A stretch of 64,000 nt of DNA, taken from Callorhinchus milii. Its lineage: Eukaryota. Made by a program: the position numbers and the translations under genes. Within the stretch, counting starts at the first letter, position 1, and each line of letters opens with the position of its first letter. Positions 44,501-59,461 of the stretch are shown piece after piece. The notes under the pieces were generated by a model. The model had not been told where the DNA came from and ran no database searches. It saw nothing but the letters and a program-made list of their open reading frames with translations. The stretch covers positions 9,550,001 to 9,614,000 of the forward strand of contig NW_024704742.1 in NCBI RefSeq assembly GCF_018977255.1, written 5' to 3'.

Positions 44501-47500
44501 AACATAATTGTGTCCAGGGAGAGGAAATGGCCTAAACTAAGTATTGTTAAGAATTGAGAGGCTGCTTATCTTAAGCAGGATCCAAATGTGAAAGCATTAA
44601 AATAGCACCATGGCTGTTGTGATTAAGGAAATCTGAGTATGTGAGTTATTGACAGGTTCCTATCTAAATGCAAGTTGTTGTTGTTTAAGTAAAACATCAC
44701 TAATATGCACTTAGAAGCTTATGTACTGCTGTTAGGAGTAAATGGACAGCACAAAGGCAGAGGTTATCGTGGCACCTAACGTACAATAAAGCAATGACAG
44801 TATATTAATATTCCCACTACTGTATGGTTTGCCTCTCACTTCCTACTGCAAGTAGGAAAGGACCAATTCTCCTGTCATTTGCTTTAAACACAATTGAGGT
44901 GCAGAATGATGAATGTGGACCAGATGCAATTGTGCGATAGTACAGAGAAAATAGAGGTCTTCTCATCAAGTATATATTTTAATTGATTTATTTTTAAGCA
45001 AATGGCACAATAGATATATGGTGACATTGTGATGTAAGTGAAAAGCAGTGTTGTAGGTGGCAATGCACAGGTCTTCTTAGCTTTTAAGCTGTACTCATCA
45101 CCTCATATTTTAGTATTACTTCACCCCATGTTCCTATATTATGATCTTCACATGATATAGTCCAGCGCTGGAGACTTGAACGCACATTCTAGGCTAACAC
45201 TCCAGTCCAGATGGAGTGCTGCATTGTAAAATCCTGTGAAGTGCTTTGAGATGTCTTGACAACATGATAAGGCAATGCATCAATTGAAAGGATTATTATT
45301 GTCATGCTTTCTCACATCTATGAGAAAAGTGCAGATTACAAGATACACTAAAGGCAAAAGCAGCAGGGATGTAGAAAGGATAGAGAAAATGGAGAAATGC
45401 AGTGATGGTGATACAGAAAGAAGAAGAATGTGGAGCAACTAGGGTGAGAGAGGTGACTTTGGGCTTCCACAATTCCTCTTGTTGTGCAGTGCGGTGGGTC
45501 TGTGGTTCCCTCACCTTGGGGAGAGCAAAACCGCACTCACACACCTCTTTATCACTCACATAAAATAAGGCATTGACCGAGACTTGGGAGAGGCTGAGCG
45601 ATGTGGAGAGTCCTAAAGAAGTGAGAGCGTATTTGAAGTGTATATGTTTACGTGAAAGGGGCAATACAAATGCCAGTCATTATTGGTATAGTGTAATATG
45701 CCTTATTAAACAGGGAGTAGGGATAATAAAAGGCAGAGGGGTTAAGTTCAACTAATGTATTTGTACTCACTGCATTGTTACAAATAAAGTACAAGGATTC
45801 TGGAACATAAAGGCTGCATTAATACAAGCTGCACAATCCGAAAGGTCAAACTGTTCCCTCCTCCTTTACTATTAGGTTGTTTAAAAAAGTGCTGATGTGT
45901 CCAAGGATCAAGGTCTAGGCTTACACAGGATGTTGTTAAGTCGACCGTGCTGCTGGACGTTCTCCCAGTCTTTAAATGAGACCACAGGACTAAAACCCAA
46001 GCACACTCATCCCAGATGGCTGGAGGACTCCAGATAAGTGTGTTGCACAGGCAGGAGCATTAAGAAACCAAGTTGAAAGCCTGGCTCACGAAGCACAGTC
46101 ATCACAGAACTATAAGCGCTCGCATAACAGCGATCACCTGAACATATCCCAAGTGGAGCGCAGTACGCTTAGGCAGGTTGCGGATGGCTGACCCCGAACT
46201 GATTGCATTTCTTTTCCCTACTTGTGGAAAATGGAGTCATTAGTATGAGGAGACACACTTGGCGTTCTCTGGTTGACTTGAAGATTTCAGGCTTTGTTTG
46301 ATGACTGCATTGATTCACTGTGATAACATTTTCCGTAGCCTGATTTCCATTCCTTAATTCAGCGTGGCTCCTGGGAACTGTGGCGGAGCGTGTGTTTTGA
46401 TGTGGCTTGCGTACTTGTCTGTGACCTGAGATCCATCTGCAGGCAAATACATTATTTTCATTTGAGTGTGTTTTTGCTCCTCTTTGGCCTCTTTGTTTCG
46501 GGATGAGGTCTTACCTGTCGAATGGCGCGGGGATAAATTAGTTCTTTGATGGTGCAATGTCGTCTTTAGCAAATATATTTGAGGGAGAAAAGTCAAGAGT
46601 CCCGGAGCATTGAGAAGCACAGGAGCAGATGTGAGCTTGAAGCAGTTTCAGTGCAGAGAGCTTACAGGGGTAAACTTAGTGATTGTGTTAGGTAGGAAAT
46701 CAGACAGGCAATGCATCTTCACGCTTCCAGGCTTTTGAACAGCTTCCTCTCAGGTAAGACAACAAAAGCATGTGTTATGGCTGAATATTGATTGAAAAGA
46801 GGTAAACGTTCACAAAGAATCTTTTTCGGTTCAGATTTACTTTTTAACCTTCACTTTAATGATATTTGCACATGATCCCTGAAAGCTTTTATTGGGCAAC
46901 AAAGCCTTGTTGATTTGGTGAGGTTAGTTACCAATTTACTCACTCTTATTGACGAAACTCTGAGCTGTGTTTTTTGTCACAAGATGGTTTTTTGGGTCAC
47001 ACTTTGACTGCACTATCGGTCATCTTTCCCCGCTGCACCCCCTACCTAGTATTGTTTAGTGATTTTCAGACATCCTTCTGAAATGAAAGGAACAATATAT
47101 TCAAATGCCCACAAAGTATGCAGTCAATTCACTTTACAGTATATTCTGTGAAAAGCTTTGAGACCACCCAAAAATGTGTTAAGGCGCTATATATATCAAA
47201 TATATTATAATTATTAATATATTTGTTTACTGTATTATATTATCGCAAAATGTGATTGTTTTCGGAAGCTGGTGTTTTTTCGTACTAACCCTTATGTGCC
47301 TGTGGCGTAAGCACATGGGAGTGAAAGGGAGTCCCTCTGATGTGCAAAGAAACATAATCATGAATGTGCCACAAGTTGGTGGGAATACTTATCACTTTTA
47401 GAGTGAATAATGTGACTTTGGTATTGGGCTGCTCCTCAGGAAATGCGTGTATGGCACTGTGAGAAATGGAATGCAACTTTGCATTTGTTTTAGTCTTCCT

Positions 47501-47770: not shown

Positions 47771-49009
47771 TATTTGTTGATTTAGGGATGCAGGGAGAAT
47801 GGGAGGATGGTCTTTACATCCCACCAAGCGCTCTGGGACGCTACCCTGCATGAAGAGTGCTACATAAATGCAAGTTGGTGTTGTTAGAGACCTCAGTGTG
47901 ATGGTTATATTCAATCTTTGTTGGTGCTGAGCTATGTCCGCTCTGCTGTTCTGTGTGAATTATGGAACGTCAATAGACTGGACAACTTTGTTCTCGTTAG
48001 TAAGGTGGACCATGGACATGGTGAAGTTCTGCCTTAGTGGCAGTCAAAGAGTTAAATTCCGGTTGCTTGGGTTTTTTTTCACGAATTTGCCAGCTGGTGG
48101 TCGGGGAGAACACAGGCTGCTATGTGGTTGAGAACTACACTAACAGAAGCTGTGAAACTGCTGTGAAACATTAAATTGGGCTTTTTTTTTATCAGGCATG
48201 TGCAGTGTGCAATGCAACCAATGGTTACCCTGTGCAGAATTACTGTTACTGTGTAGAGAGATTTTGAAGGTTGGAGTCAATGTGACTTGAGTTTCTGTTA
48301 GACTTTTGTTAGAGCGCTGTAAGGATACACATCCAACAATAACTTGCATTTATATAGCGCCATTCACATAGGAAATGTCTCAGAGCGCTGCATAGTGACA
48401 TGTTGGACCATGGTCATGGGAGAGGGGTAGGAGGTGACTATACTCACAGCCAAAGAGATAGGTTTTCAGGTGGGATTGAAAGATAGTTGAAAATGGTTCG
48501 CTGACAATTAGAGAAACTAGTAATAATGTTATTTAATGTTTCCTTGTTTGTAGGAACAATAACAGATTTTGTGTGATGGAAAATATTTTTTGTTGATATG
48601 AGAAAATTAATGAAAGATATCATCTGTGTGGTTATGGGTGTAACCCCCCCCTTATCTCCAACATAATGTTCTTAGCAACAAGAGGAAAGCTATCTGATGC
48701 AGCTCAGAATTGTGAAGGTTAATCCTGGGTATATTTTGTGCAAAATCTTTTGGGCAAAATGCTTGAATGCAATGGTGACCTTAAACCACGCAGTCACTGC
48801 TGTAGATCCTGTGAAATGCTTTCAGATGTTTTGAAGGAACAATAAGATGTTAGATCAAATGCAAGGATTATTATTATATAATTTTCCTATAGATCTATTT
48901 CCTGGTGTTTGGGATAAAAAGAGCTCCTAGCTTTTACTGATTTAAAAGTAAAACTGATTACTTCCAGTGGTTGAATATTGACTTTCAGGATAATATTTAC
49001 GGTAATAAA

Positions 49010-49208
49010 TTATTCCAGAGTAATAGTTCCTTCAAAAAAAATTGGTCACTTCAATCTGCGACTGTTTGCTATGCTGTTTGCTGCTGTGTTTCACCCACAA
49101 AAATATACTGTCAATTCACTTTACAGTATATTCTGTGAAGCTCTTTGAGACATCTCGAAGATGTGATAAGGCGCTATATCAAATGCAAGGATTATTATAT
49201 TATTATTA
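49010..49208 (+). mobile_element. 5'-truncated SINE just upstream of the EGF exon
   Basis: aattggtcacttcaatc...caaggattattat. Confidence 0.85.
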
Positions 49209-49396: not shown

Positions 49397-49544
49397 CAGT
49401 TACCAAATCTCCTCCCATGCCTGGGTCGTCTCCCCCCACGCCTGGGTCAGGCCATGGCAGGCCTTGCAACGACAGTGAGAAGCTCTACTGTGTGAACGGA
49501 GGACAATGTTTCATTATCGACCGTATTAATAAAATCTCCTGCAA
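49397..49544 (+). CDS. NRG2: Neuregulin common EGF-like-domain exon (Cys1-Cys4), NRG2-like
   Basis: Translation (A)VTKSPPMPGSSPPTPGSGHGRPCNDSEKLYCVNGGQCFIIDRINKISCK has the neuregulin GH..C-x7-CVNGG.C-x10-CK pattern; the 10-residue C3-C4 loop is as in NRG2. Pyrimidine tract plus CAG/CAG acceptor (phase 1); donor AA|GTAAGT at 49544/49545 (phase 2). Family call is firm, paralogue call less so. Confidence 0.9.
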
Positions 49545-51549
49545 GTAAGTGAATTCATCCCCTCAGTTCTGCATATTGGCTTCGAGGGCGCGCATGTTAT
49601 TCTATTCAGTGTCAAGAGTTTGTGTTTAACGAACGTTATCAACACTGTTAGAGCACGTCACTTATGCCCATGCTAAATGTTCAAATGCAGCTCCATGCTT
49701 AACATGAAGGCAATGCATTTAAATGGTTGATCTTCAAACCTGTCACAAGGAATAGCTCCTCTTTTGATAAGTGTTGCATAATTACTTCAGCCCCGAAGCA
49801 TCTAAAAAAGCATTCAGTCATAAAATTATGACTTGTTCTTCAATGTTCTATAAGCAAAATAAGGTTATTCATTTAATGGTATATTGTAACACTAAGGTCC
49901 GTGAATAGAAAATGTGATTTTAATTTGGTTTAAAGGAAAAAAATATTAACCTTCCTTTCAGAACGAAAGTGCCATAATAATAATAATAATAATTATAAGC
50001 CAGTAAGAAATGTAGTTTCATTTTGTAAAGCAGGTGCTTTAAAAAAAACTGCAACCGAGTTAAACATAATTTATTATCCGTACAAAATTGAAGTAATTAT
50101 GTAGTGCAATGCTTCATTCAAAGAGAGCAATTGTCATTCTCAGTTTTAAGAACTTAATCGTATAGTCATTTGTTGGGTCTATTCAGTGCACCAACTCGCT
50201 TCATTTGACTTATGCTGCAACTATGGTCCTCGGTGCTTCTCATACCCCCCAACATTGCACCTGACACCTCCCCCGCTGGGGAACTGCCTCTATCCTAACC
50301 TATTTTTCAGTCTAACCATGCCTAACCTTGCACAGCTTGCTCCTGACAACGGTCTGTGAGAGAGAGAGCATCAGGAGAATCCAGAATTCGGCAAACTGTT
50401 AACTACAGCCTGAAATGTCAAGCCATTTAAGAATTGCAGAGAAAAAACTATATCAAAATTAAGACTGAATTCAACATTTTTGCCAAACTCTGGTTGCTCT
50501 AAAATGCTCTATAAATAGAGTAAATCTAGACCCGGCTAGAATTTTTCTCCCTGCGTGCCTGAAATAGATAAAATAGATCAATTTCACAGCAGCAACAATC
50601 ACTTAGATAAACCCAAGGTCACCTGTGACCTCCACCTACCCATATGGTTGCATGCTTTGATTCTGGTCTCATTTAATAAAACTAGTTATTTCTTTAAAAA
50701 TGTGATTATCTGGGGGGAGAAAATCTATACAGTTAAATACATAAAGTTGTGGGTTGTCTTATTGCTTAACACTGTAAATCCCAAGATTCACTTCCAAAAG
50801 CTTGAGCTTCACTAAAGCTCAATTACTTCATGATTGCGGAGAGAGTGATTTCCACCATGGGTTCAGGACACTTCCTTATTCCCGTTCAGATGCCTGTGAT
50901 GTCCTGTGTTATGCCTTAGTCTCTCACTCATGGGATGGGGAGCGGTGGGGAGATGGGGTGGGGGGAGCGTGGGTAGAAATAATTCAGTACGCAAACCTTC
51001 ATCACAAGCTGATTACATATTTAAGGGATGCTAACAAAACAATTTACATAGATGCTAGAATCTGCCACTTGCATGATTGACCTGTGATTAATCATTTCTA
51101 GATTTGCTTCAATCCTTCTAGGTAACTCCTAACACTTAAGTGGAAAGCCTGGTTCTATTGGTCTGCTGTGTGGTTGAGTTTATGTCTAACCTGCCTAGTT
51201 TTCTCAAAAGTTAACCTGCGATTGGTTTACACGCAATAGGACTTACACGACTAAGTTGCATGTGTGTATATACAATTGTTTATAAATCTATGTACAGTAC
51301 TTTACGTATGCATAATATAACTTGGGGCAAGCTTATATTGACTGCCTTTAAAAGATCCGGTGTTTCTGACTCCAGGACGGTTCACATGCTTATGTAACTG
51401 TCCTTGAAACGATATGAACAAAAGCAATGTACTTACAATTGTTTGATATCTGCATTGTTTCCTTTATCCATTTCCCACTGTCTCCTTGTCAGATTCCCAT
51501 GTCCCTTGTCCATTTCCTATGTCCATACTATATCCTTGTACTGTACTCC

Positions 51550-51675
51550 TACCCTCCCTGCCCTATGCCCCGCCTCATCCTAACCCCCAGCTCGGGTACA
51601 AATCCCTAACTGTCCAACGCCTTGGGACGTCCTCCCGACATGATAGGTGTTATACAAATGTAATTTTATTGTTGT
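51550..51675 (+). mobile_element. L2 LINE 3' UTR fragment
   Basis: cccagctcgggt...ttgggacgtcctcccgacatga...aatgtaattttattgttg. Confidence 0.7.
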
Positions 51676-52844
51676 CCATTTCCCATGCCCATACTGAATC
51701 TTGTCAGGTTTCCTTGTTCTAGTTTTATTTCTCATTAACCTTCCACTCAAAGTACAATCCAAAACTTCCAACAGTCATATGCACATTCGGCACATAGTGT
51801 ACCCATGCTGGCAAAGTGATTTGTTTTGTAAGTTCAGAAGAAAAGACCACTTTGGATTATTATTTGATTAAAAATGAGCGAATGATCACAGTTAAATCAA
51901 ACTATAGAGGCTTCTGGCAAGCGACAAGTGTTGCTCAGATTTGATCAACAGACTGAATGACATTTACATTTTGGGTCTTGCACAGCGAGTTTCTTTCCCC
52001 TCCCAATTAATGATCCCTCTTTATCAAATAATTTAATTTCTCCCTTCACTAACCCATTTCTCCTGTGTCCTCTTTGACCCAGTGTAACAGTTAAACCGTA
52101 CAATAAGTAGAATTTAAAATCATATCCTTCGGGTCTGTAACCCAATTTTCAATCTGAAACAATCATTTGTCACACTGAACCTGTGTTTATAGAGAGAGCA
52201 CACTTAAAACCAGTGTCAACATGGTATACTCTGAGTGTGCTCGCTGCTCTCACAATGCTGTGATAAGCCTTCTGCACTCGTTTTGATGCTGATCTTTCTG
52301 TGATCTAACGAGAGTTGAAGAATAGATTTGTAGAGGATGAACCCAAAAGATTACAAGGTCTTGACAATGTTGTAATGAAACAATAGTTACAAATACACTT
52401 GTAAAGAACCCAGCAATATTCAGAAATAACATGCGAGTATAAACTCTCAATGGTTTATAATTAATTGTTCCATACAATCTAGATTTACTCAATAATTTGT
52501 AGCATTTCAAAGCATCCTAAATTCAGTCTTTATTTTAAAGATGGGCTTGCTGTAGGTTTGTCTAACCAGGTGGAAAATTAAGGCTCAATTCAACAATTTG
52601 CCAAATTCTGCATATTCTGAAATGCTAAGAAAAGGTGAAATTTCTCCCCATATTTATTCTTAATTAATGCAAATTACATAACAGCAATGAAACAAAAATG
52701 CATCTAAAAAAATGCAACACATATGGGATGGTTTAGATAAACTTGCAGGCCCACATTTCCCACCTTATCTTGGCCTGTAAGACTGTTGTTTTAAAATTTA
52801 AGATCAAAAAGAATAATGGAGTATTGTTACACTAATAAATAATA

Positions 52845-53235
52845 AATAATCCTTACGTTTGGTGAGGATTTCCACTTTTACCTCAGGAGGATGTCCCAAA
52901 GCGCTCCACAGGATATGCTGTAAAGTGAAGTCACTGTGTATTTTGTGAGTGAACGCAGAAACTTTTTTGCGCTGAGTAGTGTCCCACAAACAGCCATGTA
53001 GTGAAACCCCAATTATTTTATTTGGGCGATTGTTGGCAGGTCACTGGAAGAAATTCCCTTCCGTTTTAGAATAGTGCCATGGGATCTTTAACATCCACCT
53101 TAACAGGCAGACAGGTTTAAGAGCTCATCTGAAAGACGGTACCTCCCAACAATACAGCACAGGCCCAGCATGGAGCATAAACTCACAACCTTCTGACTCA
53201 GAAGCGAGAGTGCCACCAACTGAGCCAGACTGACA
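52845..53235 (-). mobile_element. Older tRNA-headed SINE, near full length
   Basis: Tail aataatcctt..., core gtcccacaaacagcc, head acaaccttctgactcagaagcgagagtgccaccaactgagcc. Confidence 0.78.
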
Positions 53236-53689
53236 CACAAATTAAGACTCAGTTTGGAAGAACTGCTGAACTAGCAAATTAAGACAGAATTTTCCACAGT
53301 TCCGAGATTAAGATAAAATGGTTTTACAGCCTAAGACTGAGTGGAGCTTCATGCTTCTAACTAACCTACCTATTTATGGGTTATCTCTCCAAATCTGAGC
53401 ATCACAGCAGCAGCCAAACATTCAATAAGTCACAGCAAATGCTGCAAGTCTTTAAACAAAGGACCAAAATGAACTGCCAGAATCTCACTGTGGGTGGCCT
53501 TAGAAATTGCCCATTGTTATTAAGCGGAAACATGCTGGTGATATGATGTGGTTTCAGAATTCACAAGCAATTCCAAAATGCATTGACCTGTGAGATATTT
53601 TAGCTGCTTCATTAGGCTGATGCAGAGCTTGGTAGAGTTCTTTCATGTGCGTGCAAAACTCATCTTGGCTCGTCAGTTTCGATAGTCTT

Positions 53690-54070
53690 CGATTTCAAGA
53701 TCCTTTCAAATCACTTAATTCCCTCACAACTAACTACCTATCCGATTTGCTTACCCCACACTCCACCACCCGCTGCTTCTACTCGGCTGGCTCCAGCTTT
53801 CTGTTTGTCCCTCGTCCCTCTGCTCCACCATCGGTAGCTGTGTCTTCAGCCACTACGCTTCGAAACTCTGGAACTCTCACCCTCAATCCTTCCGCCTTGC
53901 CCCCTCCCTCCCCACTTTTAAATCTTGCCTAAAGTCCTTCCTTTTTTGCTCGTGCTTACGGTCACATCCCTTTTCCCTCTCCCCCTGGCTCAGGGTCAGA
54001 TTCCACCACTGTCAAGCGCTCCAGGATGCCACCTCGGGTGAAGGGCAATATATAAATGCAAGTTGTTGTT
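53690..54070 (+). mobile_element. L2 LINE 3' fragment
   Basis: Remnant NYLSDLLTP; ctctggaactctc; tail aaatgcaagttgttgtt. Confidence 0.85.
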
Positions 54071-55933
54071 ATCTTCCCTATGGGTGGAAGAATCGAACTG
54101 AGAAACTATGATCATGGAATTTAAGCAAACGGCAAATGCCACACTGATTCAACAGGGGGTTAAAATGTGACCATTACGTACGTCGGAGCAATGGAGGAAG
54201 GAGCTCCACATCATATTTAATGGATGCGTGTGATCCTTTCCCTCGAAAAGAAAATAAATGTCCATTTCCCCGAATGAAAACACAGCAATTTCATAATCTT
54301 ATCAGTGGCGCAGTGCATTGGGATGATTCTGTCACACTGACGCATCTTAGAATGCAGTTGGATGCTGATAAGTGCGTGAATAAGGTACCAAGAAATGTTG
54401 TGCTTGGATCAGAATACTGCTTGGGTCAGAAGTACATTTTTCCGGACTGGACTGTACGAAATACAGAAATCACAAAAGGCTCTTGTTCAAATGGCAAAGG
54501 TGAACCATTATCTGAGTGTTATTTCCTCAACCAATAGATTCATTTCAAGAAGTTATGTTTAAAAAAAAGCATGAAAAAAGTCCATTCGAGCATCAAACTT
54601 ATTTCTTCCCTTGACTTTGCCCAACTGGTGCTGTCTGCTGTATCCCTCAAGGATTGGACCAATGCCTCATGCAATTGCCAATGCCAATGTCCACCTCAGA
54701 CCCTGCACCTCACCGAACTCTGCCACTCTGAGACACTTAGAAATGTAAATGCAACTTATTGTTGTTGTTGCATTCATTTCTGCCCTTTAAATCGTAGTTC
54801 ACCCTTAACCGAATCATTAAATTCTTAAATGGAGTGTTTTCCATTCTCCTCTCCCCCGCACCCCACCCACACCACCCAAAGGAATCCTAACACCAGTGAT
54901 AAATTTGATCATTAGACTGCTGACCATTTGGTTTCACAGCACAATCTTCTAAGGCTAACCAAAAACATCGCTACCAAATAGCTGACTCTGGTTGCTATCA
55001 GGCATTTAGCTGCTGCTGGAATAGGGCACATGAAGTACCTTTATGATTTAATGACTCAATGGCAGCTCTGTGTGCAGGATATCAATCATTAAATGAGATA
55101 TTAGTTATGTAATCTTCCTGGTAACACAATCCCATAACTCTCAATTGAAAGCTTTCTTTCTTTGTATCCAGGAACAAAATACCTCTCTTTAAGATTCTCC
55201 CTATTGTTATTTGTACGTGTAAATGCACCACATCATGTTACCAGAATGAATATCTATTTAAGTGCAGCATCTTGCATGGTCTGGTGCTGTTGCTTTTATG
55301 GAAAGGATTTATTGCTGTGTAAAAGGTAATCAGAAATACCAAATTCTCTGTCCAGCTTGCAATGCGATGTGAGCAGGCTTTTTTAAAGCCCACAAAATAT
55401 ACAGTCAATTCACTTTAAGGTATGTTCCCGTGAAGCGCTTTGAAATGTCTCGAAGGCATGAAAAGGAGCTACATCACTTTAAAGATTATTATTATCAGAT
55501 TTTTAAAAGAGAAGATAGAAGGGGAGGTTTTGCTGTGTAATAATCTTTCCAGTGCCGTTTTAATTAATATAGATCATTGAAAAACCCCACACTCAAGCAA
55601 ATAGATTTCTGGTGACTATTCCCATTCATTGCTCCCTGACTGGAGCTGTGAAGCACGTGCATGTGAGATTCCATGTGTTTCCTACTTCAGTCCATTGTCA
55701 ATACATAGCATCAGGCTCTCTCCGATGAAGGTAATGGTAATTTCATTCATGGTAGGGGAATAACAGGGGCCTATTAAATATTGCCATCGGGCACGCAGCT
55801 GATTTTCGGAAACAGCTTCACAGGAGGTGGGTCTGTTGTGATCACCAAGGAGTGAGTGCTGATAACTGTTAAATGAATAGATCTCCACATGTGTTTTGTT
55901 CTGTTTGTTTTATGTCCCCTTTCTGCCCTCCAG

Positions 55934-56001
55934 GTGCGAAGATGGATTCACTGGAGAAAGATGTAGGATCACTGTACCCATGAGAGTCTTTATACCTGAA
56001 C
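55934..56001 (+). CDS. NRG2: Neuregulin EGF alpha exon (Cys5-Cys6)
   Basis: Acceptor tttctgccctccag|G; reads G TGC GAA GAT GGA TTC ACT GGA GAA AGA TGT... = (K)CEDGFTGERCRITVPMRVFIPE; donor C|GTATGT. The phase completes the AA|G Lys codon from the common exon. 68 nt. Not in the ORF track. Confidence 0.88.
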
Positions 56002-57174
56002 GTATGTGAAGATATAATAACGCCTTTTTTTTCTCCTCTCCCTACAGCTCAGAAAAGGATTCCTTGGTGCAGTCGCTGATAAGGGGGGATTTGTATTTCT
56101 TTAAAAAAACACGTTTCAATTTAAAATGTAAGCAGGTCGACAGCCTGCTATTCCTAATATTAATCTTTGTTTGAACAAAATACATAGCATAGCAACAATT
56201 TTGTTCAAATACCTTAAACTGTCTTTTCAGCCATTGAAATCCTCCCCAATTATCCCTCTGCTCCTCCCCCTCTTCGTCCCCCTCCCCCAGCCCCCTAAAC
56301 AGAGAGCTTAATCTTGTAACGTTTCATGCTGTTTCTGTAAAACAAATTCCAAAGACACAGTTCCTCCTGTGTTTATGATTGACAAAGGCTAAGGATCCCG
56401 ACAGCAAAACTGACATCGGTGTATGAGTCTTTCTGCTTGAAAGGTTTAAAAATCTGGCATTTTCAAGAAGTACATTGAAACACTGAAACCAAACTTTCTC
56501 AGACTCCTGGAAAACCTGGGTCTAGATTTACTCTTATTTTAAGAGCGTGCAGAATTTGGCAAACTCTCAAGGACGGTATTTAGAAACTTTTTTTTCCTGC
56601 ATTCTTTTAAGAACTACAGAAATAAGGGCTTCAAAGCTAAGTCTGAATTCAAAAATTATCCAAATCCTGTACACTCTGAAATGCAACATGAATGGAATAA
56701 ATCTAACGCTATCCCAGGTTGAATTTTACTTCTTAGCTTTCCTTTATAATCTGACGCATGTTCTTTTCATGATATTTCACACTTATGGAGTAGGATATTT
56801 CCCATCCATTTATATTGTGAAATAATCCCAAGTGGAATGATAGAAATATTCACAAACTGTGAAAGTATATTAATTGACAGCAAGCTTCCTGCAACGTTTA
56901 ATCAGATTGCAGCGTGGATTGAGAAGTGCTGCCGCAGAGCTCATTGGGTTGAATTTTCATGGCTGGAAAATGCAGGGGATAAATGTATATTTTCTCCCTG
57001 ATGTTCTCCTTCTCAATGGAAGCCAATGAGATGGTGAATATCGAGGGTAAATTTGCAGGTGAAGTGAAACAATCAGCGACCACACCAAGGTTATCAGGCT
57101 CAGTGCAGAGGTTTGCTCTTTCCTGACTGATCTTCTTTCTCCTCTCTTTCTCTCATTTTTATTTGTCTTGTCAG

Positions 57175-57233
57175 GTGCCCAAATGAATTTACTGGTGATC
57201 GCTGCCAAAACTACGTAATGGCCAGTTTCTACA
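57175..57233 (+). CDS. NRG2: Neuregulin EGF beta exon (Cys5-Cys6)
   Basis: Branch-like CTGAC at about 57123, long pyrimidine tract, tcag|G; reads (K)CPNEFTGDRCQNYVMASFY; donor A|GTACGT. 59 nt. The peptide equals the NRG1 beta sequence as I recall it. Confidence 0.93.
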
Positions 57234-59461
57234 GTACGTCCACTTCTTCTTCTGTCTCTCCCTGAATTGGAGCTTGCTTAGTCACACTGTTGCTTCCTGC
57301 TGCTGTTGCTGCTCCTGCTGCCTGCATCTTCCTCTAAGATTTCAGCCTTCAGTCAGACGATAGCTCTTCCCCTTAGAAGTGAGAGGAAAAAGATAAGAGA
57401 GGCCACATCTGCTTGCAGCATGTAGCTGGCCACAAAGCCGAGGGCCTGTGTTTAGTGTTGTGTTCTTTAATAAGGAGGCAAATGGTTAAATGGTTGACCG
57501 AGAGATAGCGCTAACCATGCTCAGCAACTATCGAGGCAGATGACAGGGAGATGGATTGCGGTGTTCAGCAATGAGAATTGCAGGTCAGAAAAGTTGGAGA
57601 GAGAGATGATAAGTCTTGTGATCAGTCTGGGAGGTGATGAAGCGATGATGGGTAGGGGAAGAGATCAAGGATAGTAACCCCCAAAAAATGCAGATTGAGG
57701 AAAGTAGGAGCAAGGACGAGACGGTGTAAGGTGACGTGGGGTGTACAGATTAAAGAGCATTCCCTCGAGAGATGGGGATGTTCAGAAGAATTGATGATTC
57801 AGGAAGAGTGAAGAGCCGAGAGATGACAGAGAGTTCATCATTAAAAACAAATCTATTGCTGGAAACACGAGATACAAGATATCTTAAAAAACAGCATCTT
57901 CTAGTTATTGTCTCAGCTGTAGAATAACATCTATTTTATGATGGAAAGAAACGAGTTAAGCTTTCAGTCAAAAGGGATATCGGATTGAAGACAACAAGGA
58001 TTTTATTTATCACCTTCTGTGTTGCACACCTCATTATTTAATGTATCTCACATTAAAATACCTGATGCTCCCACCCTCACAATTGAAAATTCCATTCATT
58101 TTATATTGACACTCTAATTTTTTTGTAACGCAACTTCAAATAATAGTTGTACAGGGAGATAGGTCTCTTCCATGAAGCTGAATGAAGCTGAATAAGTCAG
58201 GAAAAGTAGCACTTAATGACCTGCATGCCGAATGGAATACAGAGATACTGCCCGAAATAGCTGAGAGGATAATTGTATCAAATAGGGAGTCTATGATAAA
58301 TGATGACAGCTTGGATTTTATAGCATCTACACGGTGGGTAGAGCTAAGGATCTAAAATGCTACGTGGACAGGCACAGCAAGTGCAGGAAGAGTGCAAGTT
58401 CACCAACTGTGGCATTATAAACACAGCAGGTTTCTGTTTAGTGTTGGTTTTGTCACCACGACATAAGGATGCATTCGAGAGAAGAAATCAAGGAACAGAA
58501 GCCCAAAATGGGAGAACTGCAGGGATCCATGAGAGCAGGGAATCAAAGAGAAATGAGAGTGTTCTTAGAGTGTGCGTCTGTCACTGTCACATTCTCCAAT
58601 TAATGATTGGAGTCTTGCAGTGTAAGAACACAGGGAATAGACTGAAGGAGGCATCGCAAGAATAATAATGATGTGATTCTTCTGCCTTATTGTTTGGATC
58701 TGAGAGTTAATGGAGGAATACAGCCTCTAATATGGTAGAGTCAGGTAAACACCATTCAACCCTTGTAGATTAACCCTTTGAGTATTGAGACATGTGGCAC
58801 ATCATGTATTCCTCTCGCCCCTTAAAGCAAAAGCCACTCACTTAGGTATAGTAGCCTCTGATGTACAGTTCCCGAGAGATATAGCATCAACTGCACCCAT
58901 GAGAAAACATTGTGTCTATACTCATCGGGCTGCTGCGATACTGGCAAGTGATACTGAAGAAAATTGGAGAAAATGGTTAGAAAACTCGCTCACACAGACC
59001 GACAATTTTCCTGTACAAATCTGTTGCTGATGAGTTCAACCTGGAGCCCCAACGCTTTCCAGGACAAGGTATTGCATCATCACTACTGTCTGTGCAGCTG
59101 ATGTGTGCTTTAAGTTCTCTCTGAATCCCTCTGTTTGTTGGAGAAGCTTTACCCGGAGTAAGAGAGGAGATCAAGCAGCCCTGCCCATCACATTCCATCT
59201 TCTGTGCCTCCTTCTGACCTCCATCGATATACCAACAATTGATATACTGAGCCATGAAGAGTTTTGCAACCTATGTTTCCTTTCCCCTGGCCAGAATGTT
59301 CTTGTCAATAGTGACACATTGGGAAGGCAGAGGCATGAACAGAAGAACAGCTATGTCCTCAGTAACCTACGAAAGCGAAGCCTTCCTCAAGAATGAAGAT
59401 GTGCAATTGACGAATGATGGAATTAGATGGAATTGATGTCAGAGGATCAGGAAGAATAGTG

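What the first reader, a model, noticed from the sequence alone, without database searches (positions are those of the whole stretch)
49397..57265. Mosaic neuregulin EGF module: NRG2-type N-terminal exon with NRG1-type alpha and beta exons
Seen: the common exon reads GHGRPCNDSEKLYCVNGGQCFIIDRINKISCK (10-aa C3-C4 loop), alpha reads CEDGFTGERCRITVPMRVFIPE (68 nt) and beta reads CPNEFTGDRCQNYVMASFY (59 nt). Recalled: human NRG2 has GHARKCNETAKSYCVNGGVCYYIEGINQLSCK (10-aa loop) and NRG1 has a 13-aa loop. Human NRG1 alpha is CQPGFTGARCTENVPMKVQNQE (same length as here) and NRG1 beta is identical to the peptide here, unlike mammalian NRG2 beta (CPVGYTGDRCQQFAMVNF). Inference: an NRG2 that kept the ancestral NRG1/NRG2 C-terminal exons, an exon-level gene conversion, or a distinct paralogue lost in mammals. 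The beta residues affect ErbB3/4 affinity.
Basis: partly seen in the sequence, partly recalled or inferred. Interest (0 to 1): 0.75.

Follow-up and report, generated by a model that had tools for sequence, protein, structure and literature searches.

The report
Elephant shark NRG1 EGF-domain exons
These three exons encode the receptor-binding domain of the already annotated neuregulin-1 gene of the elephant shark, and its apparent NRG1/NRG2 mosaic comes from comparing it with mammals only, although it does suggest that the longer loop of human NRG1 arose in bony vertebrates.

Summary
Three spliced exons encode a neuregulin EGF module: common 49397-49544, alpha 55934-56001 (68 nt) and beta 57175-57233 (59 nt).

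The gene is NRG1, not NRG2 or a third paralogue.
- The common exon is 100% identical to a public Callorhinchus milii pro-neuregulin-1 model. That model's other exons map just downstream on the same contig.
- Its transmembrane region and tail group with NRG1.
- A type III exon lies upstream.
- A separate NRG2 locus sits on another contig next to Pur-alpha.

The "mosaic" comes from using mammals as the only reference.
- The beta peptide is invariant in NRG1 (19/19) and nearly the same in non-mammalian NRG2 (17-18/19 in cartilaginous fishes). Only tetrapod NRG2 diverged.
- The alpha exon is NRG1-type (17-18/22 to shark and skate NRG1 alpha).
- The 10-residue C3-C4 loop occurs in NRG1 of all 21 cartilaginous fish species seen and in every NRG2.
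- Every bony-vertebrate NRG1 seen has 13 residues, or 12 in squamates.

The best reading is that the short loop is ancestral and that bony-vertebrate NRG1 gained a 3-residue insertion. An ancient gene conversion is not excluded, and no jawless-vertebrate outgroup was obtained.

The parts
49397..49544 (+). Common EGF exon of NRG1 (148 nt). It encodes a short Ser/Pro-rich linker and cysteines C1-C4 of the EGF-like domain, with a 10-residue C3-C4 loop.
   Evidence: Searches show the open frame, AG acceptor and GTAAGT donor. It is 100% identical to P0001 (Callorhinchus milii pro-neuregulin-1).
55934..56001 (+). Alternative alpha exon (68 nt). It encodes C5-C6 and reads CEDGFTGERCRITVPMRVFIPE.
   Evidence: Searches show AG/GTATGT. 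It is 17-18/22 identical to shark and skate NRG1 alpha isoforms and 8-12/22 to NRG2 alpha. tblastn with Rhincodon NRG1 isoform X3 gives E 3.5e-7. It is absent from the 3 public Callorhinchus NRG1 models seen.
57175..57233 (+). Alternative beta exon (59 nt). It encodes C5-C6 and reads CPNEFTGDRCQNYVMASFY.
   Evidence: Searches show AG/GTACGT. It is part of P0001, P0285 and P0286 and is 19/19 identical to NRG1 beta of rabbit, Xenopus, paddlefish, eel and whale shark.
57234..57265 (+). Read-through of the beta donor. The frame continues as (Y)STSTSSSVSP and stops at TGA 57263-57265. It may be a beta3-type soluble C-terminus, which is an inference only.
   Evidence: The open frame is shown. The likeness to the human NRG1 beta3 end is recalled, not tested. 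No protein with such an end was among those fetched.

Best explanation
The interval holds the three exons that build the receptor-binding EGF-like domain of the elephant shark (Callorhinchus milii) NRG1 gene. The common exon supplies cysteines 1-4. One of two mutually exclusive exons, alpha or beta, supplies cysteines 5-6. The product is then joined to the juxtamembrane exon '1' or directly to the transmembrane exon, both just beyond the window. This gives the usual alpha/beta x 1/2 isoform matrix of pro-NRG1, and the shed EGF domain is expected to activate ErbB3/ErbB4-type receptors (an inference from the family). The apparent mosaic reflects unequal rates of change, not recombination. The beta exon has been frozen since before NRG1 and NRG2 separated, so it looks 'NRG1-type' in both genes outside tetrapods. 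The alpha exon is plainly NRG1. The common exon keeps the short 10-residue C3-C4 loop ending in ..GINKLSC, which NRG2 also kept. NRG1 of bony vertebrates gained three residues in the second half of that loop and diverged quickly there. Shown here: gene identity, exon structure, and the distribution of loop lengths among jawed vertebrates. Inferred: the direction of change (insertion in bony vertebrates) and the receptor function.
For: Gene identity:
- P0001 is 100% identical to the common exon and is named pro-neuregulin-1 of Callorhinchus milii.
- Its remaining exons map to C1:9619704-9628883, downstream of the window.
- In a tail tree of 38 proteins that I chose, a branch with 100% SH-aLRT and length 0.68 separates all NRG2 from all NRG1. 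The window protein sits with 9 other cartilaginous-fish NRG1.
- TM+tail identity is 80% to cartilaginous-fish NRG1, 65% to bony NRG1 and 44-50% to NRG2.
- A type III N-terminal exon lies at C1:9538946-9539578. It is 50% identical to paddlefish type III NRG1 (E 6.9e-39), and no counterpart was hit on C13.
- A separate NRG2 locus at C13:5868569-5886601 has its own alpha and beta exons. Pur-alpha, confirmed by exact protein look-up, lies 0.2 Mb away.

Loop lengths:
- All 15 cartilaginous-fish proteins named NRG1 among the 120 listed have 10 residues.
- So do all 64 of the 70 cluster members in which an EGF domain was found. Together these cover 21 species.
- Every NRG2 seen has 10 residues.
- Every bony-vertebrate NRG1 seen has 13: bichirs, sturgeon, paddlefish, gar, bowfin, teleosts, amphibians and mammals. 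Two squamates have 12.

Local remodelling, not whole-exon replacement:
- In the first 24 positions of the common exon the window scores 16/24 to paddlefish and sturgeon NRG1 and 15-17/24 to cartilaginous-fish NRG2. The NRG2 likeness is therefore confined to the last 8 residues.
- Caecilian and frog NRG1 read GIT-SSS-KYLCK against GIN-KLSCK, which is the short loop plus three residues.

Exon tests:
- Beta is 19/19 in NRG1 from shark to rabbit, 17-18/19 in cartilaginous-fish NRG2 and 18/19 in salmon nrg2a.
- Alpha is 17-18/22 to shark and skate NRG1 alpha. The motif GFTGERC..VP[ML]RV is shared with bichir and bowfin NRG1 alpha.
Against: - In the 35-column tree of the common exon, a branch with 99/99 support groups cartilaginous-fish NRG1 with all NRG2, apart from bony NRG1. 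An old exon replacement would produce the same picture.
- Forcing all NRG1 together costs 7.06 log-likelihood units (AU p = 0.085). This is not rejected, but it is not comfortable either.
- The two outgroups do not polarise the loop. Elephant shark NRG3 has a 12-residue loop and the NRG4-like exon has 9, and they attach at different places in the tree.
- No lamprey or hagfish neuregulin was obtained.
- The Pur gene near NRG1 on C1 is named 'Pur-beta-like' by its source. It was not shown to be the counterpart of the human gene next to NRG1, so synteny on the NRG1 side is only suggestive.
- Use of the alpha exon in this species has no transcript support here.
Confidence: 0.75

Rival explanations
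1. Ancient exon-level gene conversion. In the stem of cartilaginous fishes the common EGF exon of NRG1, or its 3' half, was overwritten by the NRG2 exon and has diverged since.
For: The common-exon tree groups cartilaginous-fish NRG1 with NRG2 (99/99 support). The last 8 residues RINKISCK/GINKLSCQ match NRG2 GINKLSCK at 5-6 of 8 positions. NRG1 and NRG2 do share unusually conserved DNA at other exons of this module.
Against: The two elephant shark exons are 68% identical in nucleotides. Third positions are 48% identical, as in the TM exon (44%), and only 10/22 conserved residues use the same codon. Similarity stops 7 nt past the exon. Cartilaginous-fish NRG1 exons form their own group (94/95) and are not nested in cartilaginous-fish NRG2. 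They keep F after C3, as most NRG1 do, where all NRG2 have Y. Most also keep the N of ..ING.. that paddlefish, sturgeon, bichir and amphibian NRG1 share. This reading needs two events (insertion, then conversion) where one insertion suffices. An event older than about 400 My cannot be excluded from DNA.
Confidence: 0.15
2. Independent shortening. The NRG1/NRG2 ancestor had a long loop (12-13 residues, as in NRG3 and bony NRG1). NRG2 and cartilaginous-fish NRG1 each lost 3 residues separately.
For: Elephant shark NRG3 has a 12-residue loop.
Against: This requires two parallel deletions that arrive at nearly the same sequence (GINKLSC in both). It also needs further changes to explain 12 versus 13. 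The NRG4-like exon has 9 residues. From recall, most other EGF-family ligands have about 10.
Confidence: 0.07
3. One reading: the gene is an NRG2 that kept ancestral C-terminal exons, or a distinct neuregulin paralogue that mammals lost.
For: Only the NRG2-like look of the common exon.
Against: A bona fide NRG2 with its own common, alpha, beta, '1', TM and tail exons lies on C13. PF02158 hits only two loci (8 of 8 matches on C1 or C13). Paddlefish NRG1 finds only the C1 and C13 loci plus one NRG3 TM exon on C7 (13 matches). The tail tree places the window gene in NRG1.
Confidence: 0.02

Closest known systems
Pro-neuregulin-1 (NRG1/heregulin) of bony vertebrates, e.g. the human EGF domain solved as PDB 1HAE/1HRE (alpha) and 3U7U, 7MN5 (beta)
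   Same: The exon plan matches: a common exon, then alternative alpha (68 nt) and beta (59 nt) exons, exon '1' HLGIEFM, and a TM exon. The beta peptide is identical at 19/19. The alpha exon is NRG1-type, a type III exon lies upstream, and the tail is 65% identical.
   Different: The C3-C4 loop has 10 residues, not 13, and the N-terminal half of the domain is only 11-16/24 identical. From recall, the extra residues of human heregulin were described as an insertion relative to EGF/TGF-alpha in the 1990s NMR structures. I did not find this in the papers I searched.
NRG1 of sharks, rays and skates (public models, 20 species)
   Same: They share the 10-residue loop, the alpha and beta exons and the tail (80% identity).
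   Different: The elephant shark common exon is only 22-24/32 identical to theirs. It has lineage-specific changes, for example GRP for ARP and RINKIS for GINKLS. No alpha isoform is among its 3 public models.
NRG2 of the same genome (C13) and of other vertebrates
   Same: It has the same 10-residue loop with GINKLSCK, a near-identical beta exon (17/19 residues, 53/59 nt by my count on the alignment) and a near-identical TM exon (32/34).
   Different: The alpha exon differs (GFFGQRC..EPLR, 10/22). The tail is 50% identical. It lies on a different contig, next to Pur-alpha.

Membership tests
ErbB-receptor ligand EGF module (criteria of Stein and Staros 2006, PMC1618406, passages read) | [quoted passage not shown] | tested here: met
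   C1-C4 lie in exon 49397-49544 and C5-C6 in the alpha or beta exon. The intron falls in the codon after C4.
ErbB-receptor ligand EGF module (criteria of Stein and Staros 2006, PMC1618406, passages read) | The module is placed close to the transmembrane segment | tested here: met
   In P0001 the EGF domain is followed by KAEELYQKR and then the TM helix. The TM exon is at C1:9619704-9619808.
NRG1 orthologue | The transmembrane and cytoplasmic region groups with NRG1, not NRG2 | tested here: met
   In the tail tree of 38 chosen proteins the NRG1|NRG2 branch has 100% SH-aLRT. Identities are 65-80% to NRG1 and 44-50% to NRG2.
NRG1 orthologue | A type III (cysteine-rich domain) first exon in the same locus | tested here: met
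   C1:9538946-9539578 matches residues 1-217 of paddlefish type III NRG1 (E 6.9e-39, 50% identity). I did not test whether NRG2 loci can also have such an exon.
NRG1 orthologue | NRG1-type alpha exon | tested here: met
   17-18/22 to 5 cartilaginous-fish NRG1 alpha isoforms, 10-12/22 to 4 teleost NRG1 alpha and 8-12/22 to 9 NRG2 alpha. The motif is shared with bichir and bowfin NRG1 alpha.
NRG1 orthologue | 13-residue C3-C4 loop, as in all bony-vertebrate NRG1 seen | tested here: not met
   The loop has 10 residues. No cartilaginous-fish NRG1 has the long loop (21 species), so it defines bony-vertebrate NRG1 and not the orthology group.
NRG1 orthologue | Conserved neighbourhood | tested here: inconclusive
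   A Pur-family gene lies 0.6 Mb upstream on C1, but its source names it 'Pur-beta-like'. The human arrangement is recalled, not checked.
NRG2 orthologue | It is the genome's NRG2 locus (tail, alpha exon, Pur-alpha neighbour) | tested here: not met
   Those features belong to C13:5868569-5886601.
Recent gene-conversion tract between paralogues | Raised nucleotide identity, including synonymous sites and flanks, limited to the converted exon | tested here: not met
   The common exon shows 68% nucleotide identity, 48% at third positions, and no flank similarity.

The most novel reading that the evidence does not exclude
The three-residue loop insertion and the fast remodelling of the N-terminal receptor-binding half of NRG1 are innovations of bony vertebrates. 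In cartilaginous fishes NRG1-beta and NRG2-beta still present almost the same EGF domain, so ligand-level divergence of the two genes came after the split from cartilaginous fishes. In addition, the alternative exons (alpha, beta, '1') carry a nucleotide-level splicing code. This includes a roughly 170-nt intronic element around exon '1' that has been kept in both paralogues since their duplication.
Probability: 0.5. Interest if true: 0.45.

Novelty: already known. Interest (0 to 1): 0.28.

Why it matters
The gene and its protein models are public, so the locus adds no new biology. The comparison does show that half of the NRG1 receptor-binding domain (beta) has not changed in any jawed vertebrate seen. 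The other half carries a loop whose length separates cartilaginous from bony vertebrates. This offers a natural experiment on what the extra loop residues of human NRG1 contribute to ErbB3/ErbB4 binding. It also shows why paralogue calls from mammalian reference peptides mislead. My four literature searches turned up no description of this distribution, judged from search listings only.

Tried and rejected
- the first common-exon tree is invalid. My pattern picked up the cysteine-rich domain of type III isoforms and a wrong stretch in one NRG2. I discarded it and redid it.
- exon '1' (HLGIEFM) and the TM exon are not in the window. They were found 0.4 and 5.7 kb beyond its end.
- the representative search with the whole protein was swamped by giant Ig-repeat proteins. 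About 30 of the 150 listed are neuregulins and none looked like a jawless-vertebrate sequence.
- this search gave basal ray-finned fishes but no coelacanth, lungfish NRG1 or cyclostome.
- exact look-ups named the C13 Pur gene (Pur-alpha) and the C1 Pur gene ('Pur-beta-like'). The C28 Pur open frame was not found.
- no RNA holder was listed for the common exon.
- laying reads gave no result, so splicing of alpha in this species was not examined.
- the paper searches found nothing on cartilaginous-fish or lamprey neuregulin, or on the loop insertion (listings only). I read passages of PMC1618406.
- this scan has no earlier notes on this locus or on neuregulin.
- A structure or complex prediction was considered and not run, because no claim here depends on it.


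Full report
**Observation.** The three peptides are in the window as described. The ORF listing shows them in open frames on the + strand. The sequence shows canonical splice sites:
- Common exon: 49397-49544 (AG | ... | GTAAGT).
- Alpha exon: 55934-56001 (68 nt, AG | ... | GTATGT).
- Beta exon: 57175-57233 (59 nt, AG | ... | GTACGT).

The phases fit. The common exon ends in AA, and the G that opens alpha or beta completes the lysine before C5. Alpha ends with C and beta with A. Joined to the AG that starts the next exons, these give Q and K, as in shark isoforms ..FIPEQAEELYQ and ..ASFYKAEELYQ. The C3-C4 loop FIIDRINKIS has 10 residues.

**What the gene is.**
- The window is C1:9550001-9614000 of a 991.5-Mb assembly.
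- The common exon is 100% identical to P0001, a 605-residue protein that UniRef names pro-neuregulin-1 of Callorhinchus milii. Two further public models of the same gene exist (P0285, P0286). All three are beta forms.
- tblastn places only the common and beta exons of these models in the window.
- Exon '1' (HLGIEFM) is at C1:9614419-9614442, the TM exon at 9619704-9619808, and the tail runs to 9628883.
- A type III first exon lies at C1:9538946-9539578, about 10 kb before the window.
- The first 49 kb of the window is therefore intron.

**Other neuregulins in the genome.**
- The common exon finds a clear NRG2 exon on C13 (SGHARRCNKTETSYCVNGGVCYYIDGINKLSCK), an NRG3-type exon on C7 and an NRG4-like exon on C26.
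- The public elephant shark NRG2 (P0014) maps to C13:5868569-5886601, with its own alpha exon (CHPGFFGQRCMETEPLRSYKPD) and beta exon (CPNEFTGDRCQHYVIASFY).
- The neuregulin tail family PF02158 hits only these two loci (8 of 8 matches).
- Paddlefish NRG1 finds only C1, C13 and one NRG3 TM exon on C7 (13 matches). There is no third NRG1/2-type gene and no long-loop exon elsewhere.
- Pur-alpha, confirmed by exact look-up, lies 0.2 Mb from NRG2.
- Another Pur gene lies 0.6 Mb from NRG1, but its source calls it Pur-beta-like. Synteny on that side is only suggestive.

**Orthology.** I built a tree of the TM+tail region of 38 proteins that I chose from those fetched. A branch with 100% SH-aLRT and length 0.68 separates all 16 NRG2 from all 22 NRG1. 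The window protein groups with nine other cartilaginous-fish NRG1. Mean TM+tail identities of the window protein:

| Compared with | TM+tail identity |
|---|---|
| Cartilaginous-fish NRG1 | 80% |
| Bony-vertebrate NRG1 | 65% |
| Cartilaginous-fish NRG2 | 50% |
| Bony-vertebrate NRG2 | 44% |

**Exon by exon.**

*Beta.* The peptide is 19/19 identical in NRG1 of rabbit, Xenopus, paddlefish, eel and whale shark. It is 17-18/19 in cartilaginous-fish NRG2, 18/19 in salmon nrg2a, 13-15/19 in a python and an unnamed tetrapod-like NRG2, and about 10/19 in Tupaia NRG2. It therefore does not discriminate the paralogues outside tetrapods.

*Alpha.* The window scores 17-18/22 to five shark and skate NRG1 alpha isoforms, 10-12/22 to four teleost NRG1 alpha, and 8-12/22 to nine NRG2 alpha. 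Bichir and bowfin NRG1 alpha share GFTGERC/GYTGDRC..IVP[LM]RV. This exon is NRG1-type.

*Common exon.* Over 32 aligned positions the window is on average 70% identical to cartilaginous-fish NRG1, 69% to cartilaginous-fish NRG2, 63% to bony NRG2 and 48% to bony NRG1. In the 35-column tree a branch with 99/99 support puts cartilaginous-fish NRG1 with all NRG2 and apart from bony NRG1. Forcing NRG1 together costs 7.06 lnL (AU p = 0.085).

**Distribution of the loop.**
- Of the 120 proteins listed, 119 gave an EGF match.
- All 15 named NRG1 from cartilaginous fishes have 10 residues.
- Thirteen named NRG1 from bony vertebrates have 13, and two squamates have 12.
- All the rest, which are NRG2, have 10.
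- Of 70 further cluster members, 64 gave an EGF match and all have 10. Together these cover NRG1 of 21 cartilaginous-fish species.
- Bichir, ropefish, sturgeon, paddlefish, gar, two bowfins and salmonids all have 13, as do the NRG1 representatives.

**Why retention fits better than conversion.**
1. One insertion on the bony-vertebrate NRG1 stem explains the distribution. Every alternative needs at least two events.
2. The NRG2 likeness is local. In the first 24 positions the window scores 16/24 to paddlefish and sturgeon NRG1 and 15-17/24 to cartilaginous-fish NRG2. Only the last 8 residues (RINKISCK against GINKLSCK) are NRG2-like.
3. Caecilian and frog NRG1 read GIT-SSS-KYLCK, which is the short loop with three residues added.
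4. Cartilaginous-fish NRG1 keeps F after C3, where all NRG2 have Y.
5. At the DNA level the two elephant shark common exons show no excess similarity: 68% identity, 48% at third positions, 10/22 identical codons among conserved residues, and no flank similarity. The TM exon gives 44% at third positions and 15/32 identical codons.

A conversion in the stem of cartilaginous fishes would no longer be visible in DNA, so it remains a rival at about 0.15. The outgroups do not settle the polarity, since NRG3 has 12 residues and the NRG4-like exon has 9. No cyclostome sequence was obtained.

**Mechanism.** By homology with NRG1, the common exon plus alpha or beta encodes the shed EGF domain that binds ErbB3/ErbB4-type receptors. 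Alpha and beta are mutually exclusive. Downstream choices (exon '1', direct joining to the TM exon, or read-through to the TGA at 57263-57265) set the juxtamembrane form. Exon structure and isoforms in relatives are shown. Receptor binding, use of alpha in this species and the read-through end are inferred.

**Seen in passing.** Between the two paralogues of this genome the alternative exons are conserved at the nucleotide level.
- Beta is 53/59 nt identical (my count on the alignment) and uses identical codons at 14/17 conserved residues. Alpha uses identical codons at 9/10.
- The constitutive common and TM exons together show 25/54. Fisher's test for 23/27 against 25/54 gives p = 0.0008.
- A 171-nt element around exon '1', just beyond the window, is 80% identical between NRG1 and NRG2, has sharp borders, and occurs only at these two places in the genome.
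- Paralogue-specific residues (I/F in exon '1', N/H in beta) are fixed in both sharks and chimaera. Constraint is therefore more likely than recent conversion.

**Verdict.** This is an annotated NRG1 gene. The "mosaic" comes from using mammalian references only. The lasting point is that the long C3-C4 loop of NRG1 appears to be a bony-vertebrate trait.

Noticed in passing
L009:308-478 (C1:9614308-9614478, 0.3-0.5 kb beyond the window end) and C13:5875594-5875758: A roughly 171-nt element holds the 24-nt juxtamembrane exon '1' (HLGIEFM) with about 110 nt of upstream and 36 nt of downstream intron. It is 80% identical between NRG1 and NRG2, has sharp borders, and occurs only at these two places in the genome. 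It may be an old splicing-control element kept in both paralogues.
   Followed up: partly
window 55934-56001 and 57175-57233 versus C13:5880904 and 5880537: Synonymous sites of the alternative alpha and beta exons are much more alike between NRG1 and NRG2 (identical codons at 23/27 conserved residues) than those of the common and TM exons (25/54). Fisher p = 0.0008, but the numbers are small. About 50 nt after the beta donor is also partly conserved.
   Followed up: partly
window 57234-57265: If the beta donor is not used, the frame reads STSTSSSVSP and stops. The NRG2 counterpart reads SMSDS.., and teleost nrg2a models carry RMSISSS(V) between beta and the TM exon. The stretch after beta may therefore be coding in some isoforms.
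   Followed up: partly
window 55934-56001: The alpha exon is intact, with good splice sites, and is used in public NRG1 models of sharks and skates. None of the three public elephant shark NRG1 models seen contains it.
   Followed up: partly
window 45230-45305, 47106-47218, 48802-48883, 49029-49207 and others: A short interspersed repeat (core ..CACAAAATA.ACAGTCAATTCACTTTACAGTATATTCTGTGAAG..) recurs in the NRG1 introns and at more than ten places in the NRG2 locus. One copy ends about 190 nt before the common exon.
   Followed up: no
C1:9538946-9539578 (about 10 kb before the window start): The type III (cysteine-rich domain) first exon of NRG1 is here. It is 50% identical to the paddlefish type III N-terminus.
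   Followed up: partly
C1:8953269-8954099, C13:6101634-6102287, C28:4272859-4273572: Three Pur-family genes are present. One lies near NRG1 (named Pur-beta-like by its source) and one near NRG2 (Pur-alpha), which fits an old duplicated block. The open frame of the C28 copy ends oddly after ..EMKEIQ, which suggests an intron or an assembly problem.
   Followed up: partly
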